Source of the DNA: Eubacteriales Family XIII. Incertae Sedis bacterium
GTDB taxonomy: Bacteria; Bacillota; Clostridia; Peptostreptococcales; Anaerovoracaceae
Length of the DNA stretch: 10,126 nt
Assembly: GCA_031287295.1 (NCBI GenBank)
Contig: JAITTH010000014.1
Coordinates: 1 to 10,126, forward strand
Reading direction: 5' to 3'
In this document: positions 1,051 to 10,126 of the stretch, piece by piece
Layout: every line of letters starts with the position of its first letter
How positions within the stretch are numbered: position 1 is the stretch's first letter
Program-made: the position numbers and the translations under genes
The notes under the pieces: generated by a model
The model's database searches: none
Told to the model about the DNA's origin: nothing
What the model saw: only the letters and a program-made list of their open reading frames with translations

Positions 1051-3171
1051 ATGTCGGGCAGGTTTGGGAAGATTGCGTCGGTAGTCTCCGAAAACGTAAT
1101 CATCCGATCGATTAACAGAGGACTTATTAATATCATCCCCTTTGTTCTGATTGGCGCGTTCATTGTTGCAATATTGAACTTGCCGATTCCTTCCTATCAG
1201 GATGCGATTGCCAAGATTCTGGGAACGGACTGGCGCACAGTGAGTCTTATGATTCATTTTGGAACGCTTAATGTCATCGGACTCATTGCCCTTTTTTCGG
1301 TTAGCTTCTCCCTTTCAATGGAAGAAAAAATGGTGAAGGATGGGGAGATCAGCCCTCTTGTTATTGTCCTTACGTCGTTTGCTTCTTACACCATCGTTAT
1401 GGCGAGGAGTATGGAAGGGCTGACGTTCCATTATCCGGGCGCCAACGGGTTGTTTGCGGCGATATTCATCGCGGTGATCTCGGTAAAGTGTTTCTCGTTC
1501 TTTAATGTGATTCGAAGGAAGTTTCGAATTTCACAACGATCTGTATTTGATCATCATTTGACCCTCCGGTCGGCATTCAAGGCGATTTTTCCGGTCTTTG
1601 CCACTTTGTTTTTGTTTGCGGTTTTCCGCGTTTTTATAGGAGAATATTTCTCAAATGAGAACTTTGTTGCTTTCTTCGGCAACTTCGTAAATAGGTATTT
1701 ATCCGATGACGGATTTTTCTCGATGGTGATTATCATCCTGATGACGGAGTTCTTCTGGTTTATTGGCATACACGGTGGGGATGTTATTATGGACGGCATC
1801 TCATCAATCGCAAACGGAACCGCAGATGGCGGTGTGGTCTTGACCAAGGAATTTTTCGATACGTTCATCTACCTTGGAGGCTCCGGTGCGACGCTTGGAA
1901 TGCTGCTTGCGCTTTTCTTTGTCAAAACAAGGCACAAAGGAAGGCGGCTTGCAAAGGTATCGCTCTTTCCTGCCATATTCAACATTAACGAGACACTGAT
2001 TTATGGCGTGCCGATTATCTTCAATCCCCTCTTCTTTATTCCTTTCGTGTGTTCTCCGATTGTTCTCGGTGCGATTGCCTTTGTCAGCACACATCTTGGC
2101 ATTCTTCCTGTTGTCGATACCGCCGGGCAATGGACGACACCCATTTTTCTCTCAGGCTACCTCGCGACGGGATCCTATAACGCCATCTTCATTCAGGCGA
2201 TTGGGCTTGCTGTCAGCACCTTCATTTACATCCCTTTCATCAAACTTGCCGGGCGGTCTGAACAGATAAAGAATCAGAACGATTTCGTCGAACTGCAAAA
2301 AGCTGCGATATCCGCAGCGGAAAATGAATACATTTCACTCATTGCACGCAAAGATCATATCGGCGAACTTGCCCGCGATTTCGCTACGGAATTACGGGAG
2401 CAATTTACATCAAAGCGAATTCCTTTTCGCATGGTTTTTCAACCGAAGACAGACGATGCCGGTAGAGTAAAAGGCGCAGAAGCACTTCTTCGCTGGAACC
2501 ATCCGGACTACGGCAATGTTTCACCGGTTATGATTGTCGAAATGTGTGATGAGGCGGAGCTCTCTATTGAACTCGGTCGGTGGGTGCTTGAAAAATCGAT
2601 TCAGGGATTCGCCGCGTTCAGAAGAGCGGGCGTTGATGATATCTCGATTTCAATCAATCTGAATCCACAGCACATTCATGCGGATCCGGGCTTCCCGGAC
2701 TTTGTTGCAAAGGTTCTTTCGAAGTACCGCGTGCCACCGGATCTTGTCGAACTCGAAATAACAGAGCATGCCGTCGTGAATTCCGGAGAAAGTACAAAAG
2801 AAATATTCCGGCGCCTTCGTGACATCGGCGTTTCGCTTTCTATAGACGATCTTGGGATGGGTTATAGTTCGTTGACCTACATTAGCGACTTTGGTGCCAA
2901 GACAGTGAAGATCGACACTTCGCTCATACGCGGAATCGAAAATGATGTCAACAGGCAGGAGATCGTTCGTTCCATTCTCCGTCTTCAGCAACGCATCGAT
3001 ATCGAAATCATCGTTGAGGGCGTTGAGACACGGGCGGAACTTGAGGTTTTGTCTCAGCTCGGCACGAAGTATTACCAAGGCTATTATTTCAGCAAACCTC
3101 TTCCGCCAAGAGAATTTTTGGCGTACCATGCAGAACACGGAAGCGTAAAGCAGTCCAGCCCCACAGTCTAA
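1051..3171 (+). CDS. Membrane c-di-GMP phosphodiesterase: N-terminal PTS EIIC (lactose/cellobiose-type) permease-like domain fused to a C-terminal EAL domain; no GGDEF domain
   Basis: N-terminal ~400 aa is polytopic. It carries motifs I recall from PTS EIIC type 3: FFWFIGIHGG and NETLIYGVPIIFNPLFFIPF (cf. W-F-x-G-I-H-G and NEP-x-I-FG-x-P-x-NP...IPF). The C-terminal domain has every canonical EAL motif: FQPK, AEALLRW, ISINLN, ELEITEH, DDLGMGYSSL, KIDTSL, EGVET, QGYYFSKP. GGAGG RBS at 1040-1044. Confidence 0.85.
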   Translation: MSGRFGKIASVVSENVIIRSINRGLINIIPFVLIGAFIVAILNLPIPSYQDAIAKILGTDWRTVSLMIHFGTLNVIGLIALFSVSFSLSMEEKMVKDGEISPLVIVLTSFASYTIVMARSMEGLTFHYPGANGLFAAIFIAVISVKCFSFFNVIRRKFRISQRSVFDHHLTLRSAFKAIFPVFATLFLFAVFRVFIGEYFSNENFVAFFGNFVNRYLSDDGFFSMVIIILMTEFFWFIGIHGGDVIMDGISSIANGTADGGVVLTKEFFDTFIYLGGSGATLGMLLALFFVKTRHKGRRLAKVSLFPAIFNINETLIYGVPIIFNPLFFIPFVCSPIVLGAIAFVSTHLGILPVVDTAGQWTTPIFLSGYLATGSYNAIFIQAIGLAVSTFIYIPFIKLAGRSEQIKNQNDFVELQKAAISAAENEYISLIARKDHIGELARDFATELREQFTSKRIPFRMVFQPKTDDAGRVKGAEALLRWNHPDYGNVSPVMIVEMCDEAELSIELGRWVLEKSIQGFAAFRRAGVDDISISINLNPQHIHADPGFPDFVAKVLSKYRVPPDLVELEITEHAVVNSGESTKEIFRRLRDIGVSLSIDDLGMGYSSLTYISDFGAKTVKIDTSLIRGIENDVNRQEIVRSILRLQQRIDIEIIVEGVETRAELEVLSQLGTKYYQGYYFSKPLPPREFLAYHAEHGSVKQSSPTV

Positions 3172-3242: not shown

Positions 3243-3256
3243 AGCCTCATGAGGCT
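3243..3256. repeat. Perfect 14-nt palindrome AGCCTCATGAGGCT in the 5' leader of the flotillin gene; an operator or RNA hairpin candidate
   Basis: Read directly; its reverse complement is identical. It lies downstream of a weak candidate promoter (TTGCAA 3209-3214 ... TGaTAAACT 3228-3237) and 50 nt upstream of ATG 3309. Confidence 0.5.
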
Positions 3257-3308
3257 TATTCATCCAACGACACAATCGAGAGACTGCTCTTCGAAAGGAA
3301 ATCAAGCC

Positions 3309-5645
3309 ATGGATACTGTCATAAACACCGTCAGTCTAATTATCCTCATTCCAATTGTTATTGTCATACTTGCCGTTGCGTTCGTTATCTTTAAATTGCG
3401 TTACAAAATTGCGAAGTCAAATCAGGCCCTCGTTATTTCCGGCGGAAAGAAAACGAAAAAAGCACAGCAGGGACCCACCGTATTGGTCTCGGGTGGCGCA
3501 TTCATTTCACCGTTCAAAAGACATGAATTCTTCCCCTTGGCGGTCATGACGGTATCGTCGGATGACAAAAAGACGCAGACAAAAACCGTCGTGCCTGTCG
3601 TCGTCAAGTGGACGGCACAGTTAAAGCCGGATATAGAAACAGAAGGTTCGCTGGCGAAAGCGGTAATGGGCTTTATTGGAAAAAGCGACAAAGAAATTGC
3701 AGATTCCCTGCAACAAACATTGGAAGGCGAAGTGAGAGCCGTAATCGCCACGCTTACGCCGGAAGAGGTTATTGAAGGAAGAGATAAATTTAAGTCCGAC
3801 GTGGAGGCGAACGTCCAAGAAAGAATGGCAGAGCTTGGCTTTAAGCTGATTTCACTGAACATTACAGAGGTCGGAGACGATCAAGGGCATTACGACAATT
3901 TGGCAGCGAAAGACCGTGAAGAAAGACGTCGCGAAGCAGAGAACCTGCGTGCAAAAGAACAACAATCCATTGACGAAACAGCAGCTGCGACCAGTCGGGC
4001 CTCCGAAGAGGCGCGCATTGCCAAAGACCTGGCAATTGCAGAGAAAGATCGGGATCTTAAACTGAAAAAGTCGGAGTACCAAGCGGAGACGGACAAGGCG
4101 GGACAAGACGCGCTCTACGCAGGAAGGATTCGCGAACAGGAGAGAGCCAAAGAACTGGCGAACAGCGAAGGTGCGGTTATGGTTGAGCGAGAAAGGCAAA
4201 ACCAGGCGGCTGCCGAAGCCCGTCGCAATGTGGAAACAACCATGGCGGAAACCGCAAAACAAAAGGCAAAAATCGATGCCGAATCTGCGGCGCAAAAGGC
4301 GGAGATTGATGCAAAGGCACGTGTGATCATCGCCGAACAGGATGCCGAGGCGAAAGCGAAGGCCGCCGAGAGAGAAGCCGGAGGTCAAGCCGAAGCCGAC
4401 AAACGTCGCGCAGAAGGTAAGGCAACTGCTCGCAAAACAGAAGCCGAGGCGGAAGCCGAATTCATCAAAAAGACGCGATTCGCCAATGCAGATGGTATTG
4501 CGGCGGAAGGTCGTGCAGAGGCAGAAGCCATTCGTGAAAAGGGTCTTGCCGAGGCAGAAGCCGAAAGAGCAAAGGCAGAAGCGCTCGCTGCGAATGAAGC
4601 CGTTAATCTGCAAGTTACCTTGGCGGAGATCGAGAGCAAAACGCGCATCCAGGTTTCGACTGCCATTGCCACGGCAGTTGCGGAAGTTGGAACAAACGCT
4701 ACCATCATCGATATGGGAGGCAGTGGTCATCGTGAAGAAGGGAATTTGCTGACCAATTTTTTAGGAAGCCTTCCCGAGACATTGGCGAAAATGGATGTTA
4801 AATCGGCGGCACTGAATGGTGCATCCGCCTCAGAAGTCATCAACGCCCTTTCGGCAGCGCTTCAGAACAAAGAGGCGATAGGAGGTTCCGAACTCGGAAC
4901 CATTGCGAAAAAAGTCATACATCATGAAACACCTGAGGGGCAAATGTCCACGACGATAACCGTAACGCCGGTTGCTGAAATCTCGGAAGATGCAGAGGAT
5001 GTCGTTTCTCCACCTGAGGAAAAGATTTCGGAGAATACGAATACGGATTCCGAAGACGCGAAAGAGGAACCCGTTGTCACGGCAGTTGAAGAAAAACCGG
5101 AACCGGAAGACGTAAACACCGAAAGCAAACAAGCCGACGAGGGTGCGTGGACCTTGCCGTTTGATGGGTCTAAGAAAGCGGTCCATGACACGCCTGTTGT
5201 GGAGGAAGTCGTCGAGGCTGTGGTTGCGGAGGAAGTCGTCGAGGCAGTGGCTGCGGAAGAAGTTGTCGAGGCTGTGGCCACGGAAGAAGTCGTCGAAGCC
5301 GAAACAATCGAGGCTCCCGAAGACAATCCCATTCTGGTTGCAGAGGCGAAGGGTGCCGTTGCCGATATCGTTCAAGCGCAGAAGCTTGGTGCTGCGGAAA
5401 CTGAAGAAATTGCCAAGATTTACACCATCGCCAAGGATTCAGGGCTCGACGACAAAGAAGCGCTCGATTTGGTCGCGAAAGGCGTAGGTGCAGTCAAGAC
5501 GATGCACAAATCCGGCGAACGTGTCGATCCAAAAGCCGTCGCCAAGGTTATGCTCGATTTGGATGCCAGTGGCAATGTCGGAACAGATGAAATTATTGAT
5601 TTACTAGCAAACTTCGGGAAAAAGGCGGCAGCAAAGAAACGCTAG
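3309..5645 (+). CDS. floT: Flotillin (SPFH/band-7 family, FloT/YuaG-like) with a long C-terminal extension (acidic tandem-repeat tract plus a ~100-aa helical two-repeat module); 778 aa from ATG 3309
   Basis: The N-terminus parallels B. subtilis FloT from memory: TM helix, then ...KLRYKIAKSNQALVISGG... and VLVSGGAFISPF (cf. ITKYRTAGPDEALIVTG and IVRGGGTFVLPVFQ). It is followed by the SPFH core and an EA-rich coiled-coil (AEAEAKAKAAEREA...). ATG 3309 has AAAGGAA 9 nt upstream. ATG 3249, the ORF-track start, has no RBS and sits inside the palindrome. The minus-strand ORFs 3422-5375 are shadows of the repetitive GC-rich coding sequence. Confidence 0.85.
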   Translation: MDTVINTVSLIILIPIVIVILAVAFVIFKLRYKIAKSNQALVISGGKKTKKAQQGPTVLVSGGAFISPFKRHEFFPLAVMTVSSDDKKTQTKTVVPVVVKWTAQLKPDIETEGSLAKAVMGFIGKSDKEIADSLQQTLEGEVRAVIATLTPEEVIEGRDKFKSDVEANVQERMAELGFKLISLNITEVGDDQGHYDNLAAKDREERRREAENLRAKEQQSIDETAAATSRASEEARIAKDLAIAEKDRDLKLKKSEYQAETDKAGQDALYAGRIREQERAKELANSEGAVMVERERQNQAAAEARRNVETTMAETAKQKAKIDAESAAQKAEIDAKARVIIAEQDAEAKAKAAEREAGGQAEADKRRAEGKATARKTEAEAEAEFIKKTRFANADGIAAEGRAEAEAIREKGLAEAEAERAKAEALAANEAVNLQVTLAEIESKTRIQVSTAIATAVAEVGTNATIIDMGGSGHREEGNLLTNFLGSLPETLAKMDVKSAALNGASASEVINALSAALQNKEAIGGSELGTIAKKVIHHETPEGQMSTTITVTPVAEISEDAEDVVSPPEEKISENTNTDSEDAKEEPVVTAVEEKPEPEDVNTESKQADEGAWTLPFDGSKKAVHDTPVVEEVVEAVVAEEVVEAVAAEEVVEAVATEEVVEAETIEAPEDNPILVAEAKGAVADIVQAQKLGAAETEEIAKIYTIAKDSGLDDKEALDLVAKGVGAVKTMHKSGERVDPKAVAKVMLDLDASGNVGTDEIIDLLANFGKKAAAKKR
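5203..5307 (+). repeat. In-frame 27-bp tandem repeat (~3.9 copies) encoding (EEVVEAVxA)n inside the flotillin C-terminal extension
   Basis: Units: gaggaagtcgtcgaggctgtggttgcg / gaggaagtcgtcgaggcagtggctgcg / gaagaagttgtcgaggctgtggccacg / gaagaagtcgtcgaagccgaaaca. Read directly. Confidence 0.9.
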
Positions 5646-5680: not shown

Positions 5681-6397
5681 ATGCTTAGAATTGAACACCT
5701 AATCAAGACGTATAGCGGAAAACCTGCGGTGGACGATTTGTCCCTGCACATCGCGAAGGGCGAAATATGTGGATTTATCGGGCACAACGGTGCGGGGAAA
5801 ACAACAACCATTAAGTCAGTCTGCGGGATTCTGGGTTTCGACAGTGGTGAAATTTATGTTGGTGGCAAGTCTATCAAAACAGAACCGCTCGAATGTAAAC
5901 GGCACATGGCGTATATTCCGGACAATCCGGATTTGTACGATTTTTTATCCGGTATAAAGTATCTGAACTTCGTTGCCGATGTGTATGGAATTGATGCGAC
6001 ACAGCGTCAGGAGCGGATTCATTCTTATGCGGATATGTTCGAATTAACGGCAAACCTTGCCCAATCCATCGCAACATACTCGCACGGCATGAAGCAAAAG
6101 CTTGCACTCATTTCTGCGTTCATTCACGATCCGGAATTTATCATCCTCGATGAACCTTTTGTCGGGTTGGATCCAAAGGCAGCACGTATTGTCAAAGATC
6201 TCATGCGTGAAAAGTGCAATGCGGGAGGCGCCGTATTTTTCTCGACGCATGTTCTGGAAGTCGCGGAAAAACTGTGCGACAAGGTTGCCATCATCAAAAG
6301 CGGCAAGTTGGTTGCCTACGGCGATATGGACGTGGTGCGCGGAGATTCCTCTCTTGAAGATGTATTCTTTGAACTGGAGGCAGATGAAAATGATTAA
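5681..6397 (+). CDS. ABC transporter ATP-binding protein (ABC-2 type exporter ATPase)
   Basis: Walker A GHNGAGKTT, signature-like YSHGMKQKLAL, Walker B IILDEPF, H-loop FSTHV. RBS GAGGGG 8 nt before ATG 5681. Only 35 nt after the flotillin stop with no terminator, so it is co-transcribed. Confidence 0.9.
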   Translation: MLRIEHLIKTYSGKPAVDDLSLHIAKGEICGFIGHNGAGKTTTIKSVCGILGFDSGEIYVGGKSIKTEPLECKRHMAYIPDNPDLYDFLSGIKYLNFVADVYGIDATQRQERIHSYADMFELTANLAQSIATYSHGMKQKLALISAFIHDPEFIILDEPFVGLDPKAARIVKDLMREKCNAGGAVFFSTHVLEVAEKLCDKVAIIKSGKLVAYGDMDVVRGDSSLEDVFFELEADEND

Positions 6398-7991
6398 GAC
6401 TCTGTTTTTCATCAATTTAAGAGCCTTGGGTTCGAATTTCATGAAAGGTAGCGGGAATAAGAAAACCGGTGGCGGGAAGATTTTTCTTTTGGTACTGCTT
6501 GTCCTTTATATCGCTGCCGTGTTTGTCGGAATGCTTGCAATGTTCTTCCATTCCCTTTTGGAGCCATTCTTTACCTTTGGAATCGGATGGCTGTATTTTG
6601 CCCTTCTTGGACTTATCGCGTTTGGCATATCTGTCGTTGGTACGATTTTCACCGCATCGGCGCAGATTTTTGCGGCGAAAGACAATGAACTTTTGCTTTC
6701 CATGCCGATAAAGCCATCGGCCATTCTCATGAGTCGCCTGCTTGTGCTTCTCTCCTTTGAGTACGCGCTTACGACAGTCGTTATGCTGCCAGCCTTTGTC
6801 TTGTGGCTTTTTGGAGGGTATGCGACTGCAGCAGGAATCATATTTTTTATCATGGGCGTCTTGCTATTGCCACTTATGGCGATGGCTGCGGCACTGTTGT
6901 TGGCATGGATATTAGGCACGGTTTCATCGCGTTTGCGGCACAAAAACATCATTACGCTTGTTCTTGCTGTTGGCTTCATGCTGGCGTACTTTTACATCAT
7001 GACCAACATTCAAGGCTATTTAGGAGAATTGGTAACAAAAGGTGCCGAGCTTGCGGAAGCATTCCGACGGGCAATTCCACCCCTATACGCCTTTGGGCAA
7101 AGCGTCGCAGAAGGAAGCGCGGGAAGTGCGATGCTCTTTATCCTATGGGCAGTATTGCCGTTTGCCATGGCAGTAGTGCTCGTTTCCAGGAATTACAGAA
7201 AGATACTCATCACGAATCGGGGTGGTGTAAAGACCGTATACAAAGAGAAAGCCGTAAAAGCAAGCGGTGCACTCCCTGCGCTGATTCGAAAAGAATTGGT
7301 GCATTTTTGGAGCAAACCGTTTATCATCCTCAACAGCTCAATCGGTTCGTTGTTCATGCTTATCTTTGCCGTTATGGTTCTCGTAAAGAAAGAGGCAATT
7401 CTTTCGATTATTGTAGACGTAGCACCTATGTTTGGAAATCTATCGCCGATTCCTCTGATGGCGGTTTCTCTTGCAATTTTGGGTGTTTTTAACATCCTCA
7501 GTGCTTCCTTAATCTCGCTTGAGGGGAAAAGTCTATGGATTGCAAAAAGCATTCCCGTACCGATTCGCACAATCATTACATCCAAGGTGTGTACGCATCT
7601 TATCGTCTCCGGTCTTCCTTGCCTTGTCGCCTCGATCTGCGCGATCATTGCTTTTGCGGACGGCGTGACAGACTGCCTTATCATTCTACTGCCTCCGCAG
7701 GTGGCAAGCGCACTCATGGCCGTATGTGGTGTCGCCGTTAACCTGAATCATCCGAAGCTGGAATGGACAAATGAAATATACGCGGTGAAGCAAGGGGCAT
7801 CTGCCATGATTACCATGTTTGGCGCGATGGGGCTGGTTGTCGGATTGAGTCTTGTCTATGCGATTTTGCTGCAAAGCATCGTTACCCTGACGGTGTTTTT
7901 ATGGATTTGCACGGCGGTGTTTGCTGTGGCGATTGTCTTCATCTACTCGGGACTCATGAAATCCGGGGTTCGGAAGTTTCAGGAACTATAG
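6390..7991 (+). CDS. Polytopic membrane permease partner of the ABC ATPase (ABC_export-like putative exporter, ~534 aa)
   Basis: The start overlaps the ATPase stop (gaggcagATGaaaATGattaag; GGAGG at 6376-6380), which indicates translational coupling. ATG 6390, or 6384. The ORF-track start at 6102 is an artefactual upstream extension in a frame overlapping the ATPase. The protein is MKMIKTLFFINLRALGSNFMKGSGNKKTGGGKIF... followed by 10 or more hydrophobic helices. Confidence 0.8.
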   Translation: MIKTLFFINLRALGSNFMKGSGNKKTGGGKIFLLVLLVLYIAAVFVGMLAMFFHSLLEPFFTFGIGWLYFALLGLIAFGISVVGTIFTASAQIFAAKDNELLLSMPIKPSAILMSRLLVLLSFEYALTTVVMLPAFVLWLFGGYATAAGIIFFIMGVLLLPLMAMAAALLLAWILGTVSSRLRHKNIITLVLAVGFMLAYFYIMTNIQGYLGELVTKGAELAEAFRRAIPPLYAFGQSVAEGSAGSAMLFILWAVLPFAMAVVLVSRNYRKILITNRGGVKTVYKEKAVKASGALPALIRKELVHFWSKPFIILNSSIGSLFMLIFAVMVLVKKEAILSIIVDVAPMFGNLSPIPLMAVSLAILGVFNILSASLISLEGKSLWIAKSIPVPIRTIITSKVCTHLIVSGLPCLVASICAIIAFADGVTDCLIILLPPQVASALMAVCGVAVNLNHPKLEWTNEIYAVKQGASAMITMFGAMGLVVGLSLVYAILLQSIVTLTVFLWICTAVFAVAIVFIYSGLMKSGVRKFQEL

Positions 7992-7998
7992 CCTGGGG

Positions 7999-8038
7999 GA
8001 CAAAAGAATAAGCCGTTGTATTTCAAAGCCCTGCTCCG
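7999..8038. repeat. Left arm of long-range inverted repeat: core A gacaaaagaataagccgttg (7999-8018) and core B caaagccctgctccg (8024-8038)
   Basis: The exact reverse complements occur at 8993-9012 (A') and 8919-8933 (B'). The region lies in the 51-nt convergent gap between the permease stop (7991) and the hicB stop (8043). Confidence 0.85.
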
Positions 8039-8042
8039 CGAA

Positions 8043-8450
8043 TTACATGCCGGCTCGACGTGAAATGGCAATTTCTGTGAGTGCGTCTTGAAGAACGCGC
8101 GAAAAATTGATATGGTTCGTTTCGGCAAAAGTGTTAAGCCATGCAGGTATCGTCAAGTTTTTCCGTACCGCTTTTTTGCCAAACCGCTCTGCGTAAGCAG
8201 TCATATCAAGCGCGATGACACTTACGAAGGCATCAGGTGAATCCGCCTCGATTTTTTTTACGGGACTTGGTGCAGGCACATGATTCCCGTTTTCCCATTC
8301 GCTGAGGATCCATCCACTTGCTGCGTCAATTGCCATGTCGAGGGCTTCCGCAAGCGTATTGCCACCGGTTGCACATCCCGGGAGATCGGGGACAACGACT
8401 GCATAGGCATCGCCATCAGGATAAAAAATTGCCGGATAAATCAATTTCAT
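8043..8450 (-). CDS. hicB: HicB-family type II antitoxin-like protein (RNase-H-like fold N-domain plus C-terminal ribbon-helix-helix DNA-binding domain); no HicA gene found nearby
   Basis: MKLIYPAIFYPDGDAYAVVVPDLPGCATGGNTLAEALDMAIDAASGWI... is the classic HicB/UPF0150 N-terminus. The C-terminus ...KNLTIPAWLNTFAETNHINFSRVLQDAL fits an RHH beta-strand plus helix. RBS AGAGGTGG on the minus strand (plus 8455-8462). Stop TAA at 8043-8045. Confidence 0.85.
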   Translation of the reverse strand: MKLIYPAIFYPDGDAYAVVVPDLPGCATGGNTLAEALDMAIDAASGWILSEWENGNHVPAPSPVKKIEADSPDAFVSVIALDMTAYAERFGKKAVRKNLTIPAWLNTFAETNHINFSRVLQDALTEIAISRRAGM

Positions 8451-8495
8451 TTTGCCACCTCTTTTATTTGTGCTTGTTTTAATATTGTTTTGATT

Positions 8496-8525
8496 ATTGT
8501 ATGCGCACTATGCGTATTGTGTCAA
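8496..8525 (-). promoter_or_regulatory. Near-consensus sigma-A promoter for hicB on the minus strand: TTGACA-N18-TACAAT
   Basis: The minus strand reads ctcaaTTGACAcaatacgcatagtgcgcaTACAATaatca. The -35 is plus 8520-8525 and the -10 is plus 8496-8501. The spacer contains the direct-repeat pair ATGCGCA/ATGCGTA on plus, with TGCGCA self-complementary, which is a candidate operator. Confidence 0.5.
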
Positions 8526-8642
8526 TTGAGATATGAAGCCATTCCCAGAATCAAAAAACTACGCGGACCTGCCCGAATACTTTATAATAGTATTGCGATG
8601 AGCGCGGACCGAATCGGATGGAATAAGTAGGAGGCTTAACCA

Positions 8643-8975
8643 GTGGTAAAGAAAAAAACTACAACTGAACAATCCTCGACACTTCCCAAGAAAAGCATAG
8701 CAAACCCCAAAATACCAGAGAAATATATAAGATACCAAGCGTCAACTTCAGTACTGAACTATTGCGTACTCGCAGTGTTCCCATTATTGATATTTTGTAT
8801 TTTCAGTGGCGTCATCGTAAAATACTTGATTCCGAGCTTATTAGGAAATGATCTTGTGATTCTCTTGATATGCTATGGGATTGAAATTCCAATCTATTTT
8901 CTATTCATTTTTCTTATCCGGAGCAGGGCTTTGGTTGTTGACCGCTTCCATTATCGGATGGATAAGATTCGATAA
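8643..8975 (+). CDS. Small hypothetical membrane protein (~110 aa, two predicted TM helices, Lys-rich N-terminus), divergent from hicB
   Basis: GTG start 8643 with AGGAGG (8629-8634) 8 nt upstream and a TATAAT at 8583-8588. The two hydrophobic stretches are VLNYCVLAVFPLLIFCIFSGVIV and LVILLICYGIEIPIYFLFIFLI. The last 18 codons (RSRALVVDRFHYRMDKIR) are encoded by the right inverted-repeat arm, so the native 3' end may have been altered. No homolog recognised. Confidence 0.45.
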   Translation: MVKKKTTTEQSSTLPKKSIANPKIPEKYIRYQASTSVLNYCVLAVFPLLIFCIFSGVIVKYLIPSLLGNDLVILLICYGIEIPIYFLFIFLIRSRALVVDRFHYRMDKIR

Positions 8976-9012
8976 ACTCCCCAAAGTTTGACCAACGGCT
9001 TATTCTTTTGTC
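8919..9012. repeat. Right arm of the long-range inverted repeat: B' cggagcagggctttg (8919-8933), a 59-nt spacer, then A' caacggcttattcttttgtc (8993-9012)
   Basis: Reverse complement of the left arm. In the left arm A and B are 5 nt apart, and here they are 59 nt apart. A' ends exactly at the -35 hexamer of the 9008-9037 promoter. Confidence 0.85.
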
Positions 9013-9037
9013 ACTTGAGGCAGAATATCGTTATAAT
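9008..9037 (+). promoter_or_regulatory. Strong sigma-A-like promoter TTGTCA-N18-TATAAT whose -35 is formed by the end of the right inverted-repeat arm
   Basis: ttgtca(9008-9013) cttgaggcagaatatcgt TATAAT(9032-9037). A small leader hairpin agagg-aag-cctct lies at 9046-9058. Confidence 0.55.
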
Positions 9038-9094
9038 GTTTACAAAGAGGAAGCCTCTTAATGTTTCTGTAGATGGAGGATTGAATGCAAGTCT

Positions 9095-9421
9095 ATGAGT
9101 GATTATCAGATTGATAGAGCACGTTGGGCAGAACTTTCAATCTCTGAACAGATGGGAAATATCGGTTCAGAGGTTGGACGAGCGATTTCTGCGCATCGTC
9201 GGAATTTGAAGGATCGTGAAGAAAGTGCGATAGCTCGCGCACTTGATTTATTCGATGCAACCACAGAGGTATTACTGGGTACTGCCACATAGTATCGGCT
9301 AAAGGAAATTCTTCGAGCCCGGGACGAATTTCTGAGATTATTCTATGATGGTACCTTTGAGGAAAGTGCGGATAAGATAGAAAATTATTTCATGCACTTT
9401 GCTTTTATCGCGCGCAGTTAG
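9095..9421 (+). pseudogene. Degenerate small all-alpha protein gene (108 codons) interrupted by an in-frame TAG at 9290-9292; weak resemblance to the MazG/HisE-like NTP-pyrophosphohydrolase fold
   Basis: MSDYQIDRARWAELSISEQMGNIGSEVGRAISAHRRNLKDREESAIARALDLFDATTEVLLGTAT*YRLKEILRARDEFLRLFYDGTFEESADKIENYFMHFAFIARS*. The sequence after the TAG still reads as a clean amphipathic helix. The E..G..EV then EE..A..LDLF...VLL spacing recalls MazG/HisE helices. There is no good RBS: GGAGG at 9075-9079 is 15 nt away and serves a 5-codon uORF. Antisense ORFs 9093..9290 and 9106..9288 also exist. Confidence 0.35.
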
Positions 9422-9449
9422 AGGCTCATTGCGGTCCACGAGTTTCAAA

Positions 9450-9458
9450 TGATACAAT
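9450..9458 (+). promoter_or_regulatory. Extended -10 element TGaTACAAT with no convincing -35; a second TGaTACAAg at 9466-9474; possible promoter for a transcript running into the hairpins at 9563-9707
   Basis: Read directly: caaaTGaTACAATttctgggTGaTACAAgcc. An alternative weaker promoter is TTGTCA (9524-9529)-N17-TACATA. Confidence 0.2.
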
Positions 9459-9562
9459 TTCTGGGTGATACAAGCCTAACACAGTAACATCCGAAATTTA
9501 CCACTTGAAACCGTTTTATTACTTTGTCACATGAGGCTATGTAGAGTACATATAGCGGAATC

Positions 9563-9602
9563 ATTAGCAGAAACTCGTTTGCTCCTTGCTGTTCTGCTAA
9601 TC
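9563..9602 (+). repeat. Hairpin 1 of a duplicated inverted-repeat pair: ATTAGCAGAAA (9563-9573), 18-nt loop, TTCTGCTAATC (9592-9602)
   Basis: Read directly. The same 11-mer pair recurs at 9660-9700. Confidence 0.8.
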
Positions 9603-9659
9603 AGATTATGCTTGTTATGACCGTAGAACCTGCATTCTGCGCGTTTTTATTATTCCGGT

Positions 9660-9707
9660 GATTAGCAGAATAATGAACAAGAGATGATTTTCTGCTAATC
9701 CTTTTTT
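9660..9707 (+). terminator. Hairpin 2 (GATTAGCAGAA ... 19-nt loop ... TTCTGCTAATC) followed by a CTTTTTT tract; plus-strand intrinsic-terminator-like; overlaps the stop codon of the convergent minus-strand gene
   Basis: gattagcagaa(9660-9670) taatgaacaagagatgatt ttctgctaatc(9690-9700) cttttttgcc. The stem is AT-rich with a long loop, so terminator strength is uncertain. Confidence 0.4.
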
Positions 9708-10126
9708 GCCAATACCCAATTAGATGTGCGTCTGTTCGCCGATGACGGCTCAATAATACCGTCTTTACGCATTGAAGCAAGCAGATAGCGTATCTTGTTG
9801 TCTTTCTTCTTCGCATCAAGGACATCGGAGAGTTTGTCATTCAGTAGATTGGCAAAATCAGCCTTTGCCCCGCACTCGTATTGCTTCAAATATTCAATTA
9901 TGAGGTTTCGATAGTATTGGTCATCAAAGCCCTTGTTCTTGATGTACTGCGCTTTCTCGTCTATAATTTCCGCGACATGTGCGGAGATATAGACGTAGGG
10001 GGCTTTTCCCTCAACCACGCCAAACGCCCGGAGTCGCTTTAGCTGCTCCTTTTCGAGAGGCATATGTTTCTGCACTCTATCAATCAGAAACACGGTTTCA
10101 AGGTCAAACTCCGGATGGTCAAACAA
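9695..10126 (-). CDS. 3' part (C-terminal 143 aa) of a RecG-like / Schlafen-AlbA_2 + HATPase_c_4-family putative transcriptional regulator; 5' end beyond window
   Basis: The frame is open to the window edge; the first codon TTG is not a real start. Stop TAG is the complement of 9695-9697. The tail FLIDRVQKHMPLEKEQLKRLRAFGVVEGKAPYVYISAHV...KIRYLLASMRKDGIIEPSSANRRTSNWVLAKKD matches, from memory, the C-terminal winged-helix region of the proteins often annotated as ATP-dependent DNA helicase RecG-related or putative DNA-binding proteins. Confidence 0.7.
   Translation of the reverse strand: MFDHPEFDLETVFLIDRVQKHMPLEKEQLKRLRAFGVVEGKAPYVYISAHVAEIIDEKAQYIKNKGFDDQYYRNLIIEYLKQYECGAKADFANLLNDKLSDVLDAKKKDNKIRYLLASMRKDGIIEPSSANRRTSNWVLAKKD

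What the first reader, a model, noticed from the sequence alone, without database searches (positions are those of the whole stretch)
7997..9014. ~1 kb segment carrying orphan hicB and a small membrane-protein gene is bracketed by significant inverted repeats
Two perfect cores (20 nt and 15 nt) at 7999-8038 reappear as reverse complements at 8919-9012. A 20-mer match is not expected by chance in 10 kb, whereas a chance 12-mer match is. Arm A is outermost and B innermost on both sides, as in terminal and subterminal repeats of IS or MITE ends or the recombination sites of an inverton. The spacing is asymmetric, with 5 nt between A and B on the left and 59 nt on the right. The right arm overlaps the last 18 codons of the small membrane ORF, so any inversion would be intragenic. 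Its end creates the -35 of an outward-facing consensus promoter, the classic IS-end hybrid-promoter arrangement. The enclosed DNA is AT-richer than the upstream operon. There is no recombinase or transposase in the window and no target-site duplication. Candidates are a phase-variable invertible cassette, a non-autonomous mobile cassette mobilised in trans, or a relic of an insertion or inversion in the terminator region of the ABC operon.
Basis: seen in the sequence. Interest (0 to 1): 0.7.

Follow-up and report, generated by a model that had tools for sequence, protein, structure and literature searches.

The report
Three-copy junction repeat around orphan hicB
The inverted repeats around hicB and a small orphan gene are real, but they belong to a three-copy short repeat in a decaying, AT-rich accessory patch of a Clostridiales MAG contig, and nothing shows the segment flips or moves.

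Summary
The 20-nt pair (7999-8018 / 8993-9012) and the 15-nt pair (8024-8038 / 8919-8933) are perfect, nested inverted repeats, far beyond chance.

Three new facts weaken the IS-end and inverton readings.
1. A third copy of the core lies at 9516-9537 (19/22), direct to the right arm. Its similarity runs 9 nt past the supposed outer terminus.
2. About 40 nt of a hicA 3' end survives just upstream of hicB. The GC drop starts there, inside the bracket, and continues to the contig end, so the bracket is not a compositional unit.
3. No boundary choice gives a target-site duplication. The arms have no obvious dyad symmetry by eye. No ORF on the contig has a recombinase or transposase domain.

The 20-mer is absent from 185,579 species-representative genomes and from viral contigs. 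Its only metagenome hit looks like chance. The window is the whole contig of a Clostridiales Family XIII MAG, and the nearest relative of the flanking permease is 63% identical.

Best reading (about 0.45): junction repeats left by recent rearrangements. A site-specific inversion system (about 0.2) and a transposase-less cassette (about 0.12) remain open. Interest is low to moderate.

The parts
7999..8018 (+). Arm A, left copy (copy 1 of the core, inverted relative to copies 2 and 3). It starts 7 nt after the permease stop codon (7989-7991).
8024..8038 (+). Arm B, left copy. It ends 4 nt before the hicB stop codon (8043-8045 on the - strand). A and B together fill the 51-nt gap between the convergent permease and hicB genes.
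8043..8450 (-). hicB, a HicB-like antitoxin of 135 aa. Its GC (0.49) and codon signal resemble those of the upstream genes.
8458..8497 (-). Probable remnant of a hicA 3' end (..IIKTILKQAQIKEVAK*). Its TGA overlaps the hicB ATG (ATGA). The rest of hicA is missing.
   Evidence: It aligns to the end of a hicA next to a 67%-identical hicB in L009. 13 of 300 shuffles reach the score, but the position immediately upstream of hicB agrees. No Pfam match, because it is too short.
8496..8525 (-). Promoter-like site for hicB (TTGACA, 18 nt, TACAAT). It lies where the hicA body should be.
8643..8975 (+). Small ORF of 110 codons with a GTG start 8 nt after GGAGG. It has a hydrophilic N-terminus and two hydrophobic stretches. 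It is an ORFan with a weak codon signal.
8919..8933 (+). Arm B', right copy, inside the last 18 codons of the small ORF.
8993..9012 (+). Arm A', right copy (copy 2 of the core), 17 nt after the small ORF stop. Its last 5 nt are the first 5 of the -35-like TTGTCA.
9008..9037 (+). Promoter-like site (TTGTCA, 18 nt, TATAAT) facing the interrupted ORF at 9095-9421.
9516..9537 (+). Copy 3 of the core: TTATTACTTTGTCACATGAGGC, 19/22 identical to 9000-9021 on the same strand as copy 2. It overlaps the outer half of arm A' and the 9 nt beyond it.
   Evidence: (D2); no significant similarity further out

Best explanation
The bracket is formed by two of three copies of a short sequence unit. These copies sit at the junctions between gene modules in a recently rearranged, decaying accessory patch downstream of the ABC-transporter operon.

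The fullest copy is the roughly 95-nt stretch B'-59 nt-A' (8919-9012) plus about 10 nt outward. It covers the 3' end and 3' flank of the small ORFan. An inverted partial copy of it, A-5 nt-B, now fills the gap between the permease stop and the hicB stop. A third, more diverged copy of the outer part lies 516 nt further right.

I infer that the inverted copy was laid down by a recombination or repair event, and that its 54-nt shorter spacer is an internal deletion. Both spacers are bordered by CAAA on the B side. The same round of rearrangement probably removed most of hicA and joined hicB to AT-rich foreign DNA.

In this reading the arms are scars or short-homology junctions. They are not the ends of a transposable unit and not a working switch. 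The only present-day function I would assign is incidental: the right copy supplies the -35 of a promoter-like site for the next ORF.

What is shown:
- the three copies and their orientations;
- the sharp, perfect blocks;
- the compositional break inside the bracket;
- the missing hicA (its surviving 3' end is probable, not proven);
- the interrupted neighbouring ORF;
- the absence of a target-site duplication and of recombinase domains.

What is inferred:
- the order and mechanism of the events;
- that the arms are inactive today.
For: - Three copies, not two, and the copy 2 / copy 3 similarity crosses the putative terminus.
- There is a probable hicA 3' remnant directly upstream of hicB, with the rest of hicA missing.
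- GC falls from about 0.50 to about 0.39 at roughly 8450, inside the bracket, and stays low to the contig end.
- The neighbouring ORF 9095-9421 carries an in-frame TAG, yet keeps a positive codon signal in both halves. The small ORF has no homologue among 1.8-5.8 billion proteins. Both fit a young, decaying accessory region.
- There is no TSD, no recombinase or transposase domain on the contig, and no local RNA structure in the arms.
- The 20-mer is absent from 185,579 species-representative genomes and from IMG/VR.
Against: - 35 of 35 positions are identical in two blocks with sharp edges, separated by an unrelated spacer. That is also the signature of two conserved protein-binding sites with variable spacing. 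A plain duplication needs an extra indel plus filler (TATTT instead of the expected GT) to explain the left spacer.
- Three related sites in both orientations within 1.6 kb is the layout of multiple-inversion systems.
- Inactivity is inferred from absence of evidence on a single 10-kb contig. The recombinase could lie just off the contig, and copy number in the source genome is unknown.
Confidence: 0.45

Rival explanations
1. The arms are a site-specific inversion system, either a simple inverton or a shufflon-like switch. The A cores, perhaps with B as an accessory site, would be recognised by a tyrosine or serine recombinase encoded off the contig. That enzyme would flip the hicB / small-ORF module (sites 1 x 2), or that module plus the next one (sites 1 x 3). 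Flipping would change which strand is read through from the ABC operon and from the internal promoters. With a crossover in B, the C-terminal tail of the small ORF would change from ..RSRAL-VVDRFHYRMDKIR to ..RSRAL-KYNGLFFCPPGYSS.
For: - The inverted blocks are perfect and sharp-edged, with an unrelated spacer.
- There are three related sites in orientations -,+,+.
- Asymmetric sites without dyad symmetry are known for the R64 shufflon (own knowledge).
- Recombinases acting from a distance are known for Clostridioides difficile switches (own knowledge).
- The contig ends about 1.1 kb after the right arm, so an adjacent recombinase cannot be excluded.
- HicB relatives in similar MAG contigs sit directly upstream of tyrosine integrase genes (L004 and L005; L009).
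Against: - No recombinase is present in 10 kb.
- No gene outside the segment is obviously switched. The arm-spanning promoter is unchanged by an inversion at A, because the arms are identical, and the permease stop precedes the left site.
- The segment is 880-974 nt, whereas more than 75% of 10,983 PhaseFinder invertons are under 300 nt (PMC11602134).
- No orientation data exist.
- Copy 3 is diverged (19/22).
Confidence: 0.2
2. The segment 7999-9012 (1,014 bp) is a non-autonomous IS-derived cassette, a mobile insertion cassette or large MITE. It would carry hicB and the small ORF as passengers and be mobilised in trans by a transposase that recognises the A/B ends.
For: - The layout and size match the definition of a MIC: two IRs, no transposase, one or more CDS, about 0.7-3 kb (PMC6199540).
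- The terminal plus subterminal repeat arrangement fits.
- The -35 lies at the arm end.
- A single 21-nt identical match, plus a colinear 16-nt match, occurs in an AT-rich mobile-element graveyard downstream of glmS in an unrelated contig (L003).
Against: - There is no TSD for any boundary.
- Similarity between copies 2 and 3 runs past the supposed terminus.
- There are no other copies in genome or viral collections. L003 has one arm only and no B arm.
- The hicA truncation and the GC break lie inside the 'cassette', so it is not one coherent imported unit.
- No transposase is on the contig.
Confidence: 0.12
3. The conserved core is a cis-regulatory element. One version is a DNA site: a -35 / UP module or an operator for a regulator of this island, present upstream of two rightward units and once on the other strand. 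The other version is an RNA motif: because hicB and the small ORF are divergent, both mRNAs would end with the same B'...A' sequence, and a read-through ABC-operon transcript could pair with it (20 + 15 bp).
For: - Copies 2 and 3 share TTGTCAC(N)TGAGGC, including the -35-like hexamer.
- All three copies are intergenic or at gene 3' ends.
- No terminator-like site is predicted between the permease stop and hicB, so read-through is plausible.
Against: - Only copy 2 has a usable -10.
- 20 identical nt is more than operators need.
- The arms show no structure of their own (z between -0.5 and +1.9).
- There is no Rfam match.
- No conservation data are available.
Confidence: 0.12
4. The repeat is an assembly artefact. 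The contig would be mis-joined or mis-oriented at a repeat of length k-1 (20 = 21-1) in a metagenome de Bruijn graph.
For: - The window is a complete 10,126-nt MAG contig.
- Arm A is exactly 20 nt.
Against: - A second, nested 15-nt arm in the correct order cannot come from a k-mer join.
- Any path through X and rc(X) still requires the 20-mer to occur in both contexts in the reads (own reasoning).
- At most the orientation of the middle segment would be in doubt, not the repeat itself.
Confidence: 0.03

Closest known systems
Mobile insertion cassettes (MIC231 of Bacillus cereus) and large MITEs
   Same: About 1 kb, two terminal inverted repeats, no transposase, and one or two passenger CDS. 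These are the definition and size range given in PMC6199540.
   Different: No target-site duplication. No related IS is known. No further copies were found. The similarity to a third copy overruns the 'terminus'. The interior is a mosaic of GC-normal hicB and AT-rich DNA with a truncated hicA.
Invertons: the Salmonella H segment (hix / Hin), C. difficile RecV switches, Bacteroides invertible promoters
   Same: Short perfect inverted repeats flank a segment that contains promoters. The H segment is also about 1 kb and carries a gene (own knowledge).
   Different: No invertase gene lies inside or nearby. The arms have no obvious dyad symmetry by eye. No flanking gene is evidently switched. The segment is longer than most documented invertons. 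There is no orientation evidence.
Shufflons (R64 Rci / sfx multiple-inversion system)
   Same: Three or more short, asymmetric, related sites in both orientations separate small segments (own knowledge for R64; three sites here).
   Different: No Rci-like recombinase is on the contig. The segments do not encode alternative C-termini of a constant upstream gene, because the permease stop precedes site 1.
Modular intergenic repeats of Firmicutes and others (BOX, RUP, ERIC, Correia)
   Same: Short conserved modules (A, B) with variable internal spacing, located at gene 3' ends and between convergent genes, sometimes supplying promoter elements (own knowledge).
   Different: Those families are dispersed in tens to hundreds of copies and are mostly palindromic. 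Here only three clustered copies are visible, they are not palindromic, and genome-wide copy number is unknown.
HicAB type II toxin-antitoxin loci
   Same: hicB is a clear family member (PF15919, phrog_497). Relatives have hicA immediately upstream (L006; L009).
   Different: hicA is reduced to an approximately 40-nt 3' remnant. hicB has its own promoter-like site in the former hicA position.

Membership tests
Inverton (site-specific invertible segment) | A pair of inverted repeats flanking the segment | tested here: met
   20-nt and 15-nt perfect IRs
Inverton (site-specific invertible segment) | Both orientations present in a population | not testable with these tools
   No reads are available. 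The contig is not retrievable from other assemblies. The nearest relative of the flanking gene is 63% identical.
Inverton (site-specific invertible segment) | A cognate recombinase (invertase) | tested here: not met
   No recombinase domain in any ORF of the 10-kb contig. The rest of the genome is unseen, so this is weak negative evidence.
Inverton (site-specific invertible segment) | Inversion changes expression or coding of a gene | tested here: inconclusive
   A crossover in A changes no ORF and leaves the arm-spanning promoter intact. A crossover in B would swap the last 13-14 codons of an ORFan. No flanking gene is evidently switched.
MIC / MITE (non-autonomous IS derivative) | Terminal inverted repeats and no transposase | tested here: met
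MIC / MITE (non-autonomous IS derivative) | Target-site duplication | tested here: not met
   No direct repeat of 3 bp or more for any boundary within about 6-10 nt of the A ends
MIC / MITE (non-autonomous IS derivative) | Similarity ends at the element terminus | tested here: not met
   Copies 2 and 3 stay similar for 9 nt beyond the IR (8/9 identical)
MIC / MITE (non-autonomous IS derivative) | Multiple copies, or a related autonomous IS with the same ends | tested here: inconclusive
   0 exact matches in genome contigs and viral contigs. 1 in metagenome contigs, in an unrelated context. The source genome and ISfinder are not searchable.
Shufflon | Three or more related sites in both orientations | tested here: met
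   Copies at 7997-8011 (-), 9000-9014 (+) and 9516-9530 (+)
Shufflon | Adjacent Rci-type recombinase, and segments encoding alternative 3' ends of one gene | tested here: not met
   No recombinase. The permease stop (7989-7991) lies before site 1.
Integron cassette / attC | A structured, imperfectly palindromic attC at the cassette 3' end, all in one orientation, with intI nearby | tested here: not met
   The units do not fold better than shuffles. Copy 1 is inverted. There is no integrase.
HicAB toxin-antitoxin pair | HicB antitoxin domain | tested here: met
   PF15919, E=4.1e-17; phrog_497, E=3e-38
HicAB toxin-antitoxin pair | Adjacent intact hicA toxin gene | tested here: not met
   tblastn finds only an 11-residue C-terminal match directly upstream of hicB. 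The frame is closed 24 codons upstream.

The most novel reading that the evidence does not exclude
This would be a three-site, shufflon-like inversion system in an uncultured Clostridiales Family XIII bacterium. An off-contig recombinase would use asymmetric sites of about 20 nt (TTATTCTTTTGTC core, with B as an accessory site). It would flip a module made of an antitoxin-derived regulator (orphan HicB) and a small membrane ORFan. That would alternate which of them is sense to read-through from the ABC-transporter operon, and would optionally recode the ORFan's C-terminal tail.
Probability: 0.12. Interest if true: 0.55.

Novelty: new member of a known kind. Interest (0 to 1): 0.25.

Why it matters
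If the arms are only junction scars, the locus is a small, clean example of how accessory patches are built: a toxin-antitoxin pair loses its toxin, and the orphan antitoxin is retained with a new promoter. That is ordinary.

It would matter more if reads showed inversion. It would then be a gene-carrying inverton in a little-studied Clostridiales lineage, with unusual two-block asymmetric sites and a third site. Site-specific inversion is poorly charted in such lineages. The question is cheaply decidable from the original reads.

Tried and rejected
- **Exact look-ups of the window's own proteins.** I looked up hicB, the small ORF and the permease to find the same locus in other assemblies. 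Nothing was on record.
- **Orthologous loci through the permease.** Only 62% and 37% relatives were found, with unrelated downstream genes. No empty-site comparison is possible.
- **The 20-mer in public collections.** There were 0 matches in genomes and 0 in viral contigs. The 1 metagenome match (L003) is an unrelated 68%-GC contig. The match lies in an AT-rich region downstream of glmS, with no second arm, no B arm and no flank similarity. A colinear 16-mer match also occurs there, and 5 of 300 shuffles reach that score. I treat this as probably chance, since a 20-mer is expected roughly once by chance in a collection of about 10^11-10^12 bases (my estimate; the collection size is not given). 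It stays unexplained.
- **BLAST of 7950-9700 against plasmids and phages.** Only hicB coding similarity turned up.
- **Rfam.** Nothing was found.
- **Terminator or local RNA structure for the arms.** z-scores ran from -0.5 to +1.9, so this was rejected.
- **Extended homology of copy 3 to the B / spacer part.** It was not significant.
- **Analogous IRs around hicB in the hicB-integrase loci L004 and L005.** None were found.
- **Reciprocal target duplications.** These would be expected from a replicative inversion. None were seen by eye.
- **Family assignment of the ORFs.** Searches of Pfam, NCBIfam, PADLOC, PHROGs and PDB gave no match for the small ORF or the interrupted ORF 9095-9421. The truncated last ORF gave only sub-threshold hits.
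Full report
**Source and limits**

The permease encoded at 6390-7991 is 100% identical to a protein annotated 'MAG: hypothetical protein LBU41_00560 [Clostridiales Family XIII bacterium]'. Its only contig is 10,126 nt long, so the window is that whole contig. The next closest permease is 63% identical. The two loci recovered from species-representative genomes (62% and 37% identity) have unrelated genes downstream. Exact look-ups of the window's own proteins return nothing. Strain-level comparison, empty-site tests, copy number in the source genome and read-based orientation tests are therefore all out of reach. What follows rests on the sequence itself plus distant relatives of hicB.

**The observation**

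It is correct.
- Arm A (7999-8018) and arm A' (8993-9012) are 20 nt and 100% complementary.
- Arm B (8024-8038) and arm B' (8919-8933) are 15 nt and 100% complementary.
- A is outside B on both sides. The spacers are 5 nt and 59 nt.
- In 200 dinucleotide-preserving shuffles neither pattern recurs, even with mismatches allowed.
- These are the only perfect inverted pairs of 15 nt or more on the contig.
- On the left, the two arms fill the 51-nt gap between the permease stop (7989-7991) and the stop of hicB (8043-8045, minus strand).
- On the right, B' lies in the last 18 codons of ORF 8643-8975, and A' lies 17 nt after its stop.
- The promoter-like site TTGTCA-18-TATAAT at 9008-9037 is there. 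Such sites are not enriched in the region.

**New anatomy 1: a third copy**

- The sequence at 9516-9537 (TTATTACTTTGTCACATGAGGC) matches 9000-9021 (TTATTCTTTTGTCACTTGAGGC) at 19 of 22 positions on the same strand. None of 200 shuffles gives such a match.
- This match covers the outer 13 nt of arm A' and the 9 nt beyond it. Position 9012/9014 is therefore not where similarity ends.
- The reverse complement of the left copy also shares AGGCTAT with copy 3, just outside the perfect block.
- Beyond about 22-33 nt, copy 3 has no significant similarity to the others.
- The locus thus has three related sites in orientations -, +, +, spaced 975 and 516 nt apart, each at a boundary between genes.

**New anatomy 2: the interior is a mosaic**

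- hicB (PF15919, E=4e-17) has GC 0.49 and a codon signal like the upstream genes.
- Immediately upstream of its ATG, the minus strand reads ..IIKTILKQAQIKEVAK-TGA, and the TGA overlaps the ATG. This matches the C-terminal ..ILKQAGL end of HicA toxins.
- It aligns at the nucleotide level with the end of the hicA that precedes a 67%-identical hicB in L009. 13 of 300 shuffles reach the score, but the position agrees.
- The frame is closed 24 codons upstream, and the hicB promoter-like site (8525-8496) sits where the hicA body should be. hicA was therefore probably truncated.
- GC falls from about 0.50 to about 0.39 at this point and stays at 0.38-0.45 to the contig end. The AT-rich block begins inside the bracket and runs past it.
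- In that block, the small ORF has no homologue among 5.8 billion clustered proteins or 1.84 billion representatives read exhaustively by HMMER. Its codon signal is weak (-0.05 against 0.26-0.45), although its frame is the best of six and it has a good ribosome-binding site.
- The next ORF (9095-9421) has an in-frame TAG at 9290-9292.
- This is a young, decaying accessory patch.

**Tests of the active readings**

- *Transposable cassette.* Its size and layout fit a mobile insertion cassette: two IRs, no transposase, one or more CDS, 0.7-3 kb (PMC6199540). However:
  - No boundary choice gives a direct repeat of 3 bp or more.
  - Similarity overruns the 'terminus'.
  - The interior is not one coherent unit.
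  - The 20-mer is absent from 185,579 species genomes and from IMG/VR.
  - The single metagenome hit (L003) is a 68%-GC contig. There the 21-nt match sits in an AT-rich region downstream of glmS, full of transposon-end-like repeat arrays. It has no partner arm, no B arm and no flank similarity. A colinear 16-nt match 215 nt away keeps this from being cleanly dismissed, so I leave it as unexplained and probably chance.
- *Inverton.* The inverted repeats are there, but:
  - No ORF on the contig has a recombinase domain.
  - The arms have no obvious dyad symmetry by eye and no local RNA structure.
  - An inversion at A would change neither an ORF nor the arm-spanning promoter.
  - The segment is 880-974 nt, whereas more than 75% of 10,983 PhaseFinder invertons are under 300 nt (PMC11602134).
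  - In favour: the two perfect, sharp-edged blocks separated by unrelated spacers look like conserved binding sites. Three sites in both orientations resemble a shufflon. HicB relatives in similar MAG contigs sit directly upstream of tyrosine integrase genes.

**Most likely explanation (about 0.45)**

The arms are junction repeats left by the recombination events that assembled this patch. An inverted partial copy of the roughly 95-nt 3' flank of the small ORF was laid down beside the 3' end of hicB. It then lost 54 nt internally; both spacers are bordered by CAAA on the B side. This happened in the same period in which hicA was truncated. The right copy incidentally provides a -35. The events and their order are inferred, and present-day inactivity is argued from absence of evidence.

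**Rivals**

- A site-specific inversion system with an off-contig recombinase: about 0.2.
- A transposase-less cassette: about 0.12.
- A shared regulatory DNA or RNA motif: about 0.12.
- An assembly artefact: about 0.03. The nested second arm argues against it.

**Verdict**

The feature is real and statistically solid, and its anatomy is richer than first described. Nothing shows it to be active, and its kind is not new. Read mapping to both orientations and a search of the rest of the MAG would settle it quickly.

Noticed in passing
window 9563-9700 (+): This is a nested, roughly 140-nt imperfect palindrome just after copy 3. Two 40-nt hairpins (stems ATTAGCAGAA / TTCTGCTAAT, 19-nt loops, at 9563-9601 and 9660-9700) flank a terminator-like hairpin with a T-run (9622-9650). 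Region 9545-9715 folds at -51 kcal/mol with z = -4.2, and 0 of 200 shuffles fold as well. There is no Rfam match. It could be a bidirectional terminator between convergent genes, a small MITE or REP-like element, or an sRNA.
   Followed up: partly
window 8458-8497 (-): This looks like a remnant of the last approximately 13-16 codons of a hicA toxin gene, with its stop overlapping the hicB start (ATGA). The toxin has been lost and the antitoxin kept, with a new promoter-like site (8525-8496).
   Followed up: yes
window 9095-9421 (+): A 108-codon ORF is interrupted by an in-frame TAG at 9290-9292, and both halves keep a positive codon signal. It has no match in Pfam, NCBIfam, PADLOC, PHROGs or PDB. 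A 5-codon mini-ORF (ATG at 9086, MQVYE*) sits behind the GGAGG and overlaps its start.
   Followed up: partly
L004 4001-5563, L005 1049-2611, L009 1501-3405: In other MAG and metagenome contigs, close HicB relatives (66-67% identical) lie directly upstream of a tyrosine integrase (Phage_integrase) gene. In L004 and L005 there is no called hicA, and the pair sits at the edge of an island with Abi_2 and HTH genes. A hicB-int pairing may be a recurrent module.
   Followed up: partly
L003 5040-6363: This is a 36-41% GC island right after glmS in a 68% GC contig. It contains three separate arrays of 20-22-nt spaced direct repeats (5073-5131, 5204-5247, 5577-5636), resembling stacked Tn7-like or IS21-like transposon ends, plus an IstB-like gene fragment (6013-6282, -). 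It also holds the only public exact match to arm A (5535-5555) and a colinear 16-nt match to window 9033-9048 (5770-5785).
   Followed up: partly
window 5171-5299 (+): Four tandem 27-nt repeats lie inside the Band_7 / flotillin-like gene (3249-5645). They encode repeated (A)EEVVEAV units in an acidic C-terminal extension.
   Followed up: no
window 1051-3171 (+): A single 706-aa ORF combines a PTS EIIC membrane domain (residues 23-336) with a C-terminal EAL c-di-GMP phosphodiesterase domain (447-683).
   Followed up: no
window 8613-8627 and 8953-8966 (+): A short direct repeat, ATCGGATGGA(A)TAAG, brackets the small ORF: one copy lies just before its ribosome-binding site and the other in its last codons. 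A 10-mer match is within chance for this region, and the extension is marginal.
   Followed up: no
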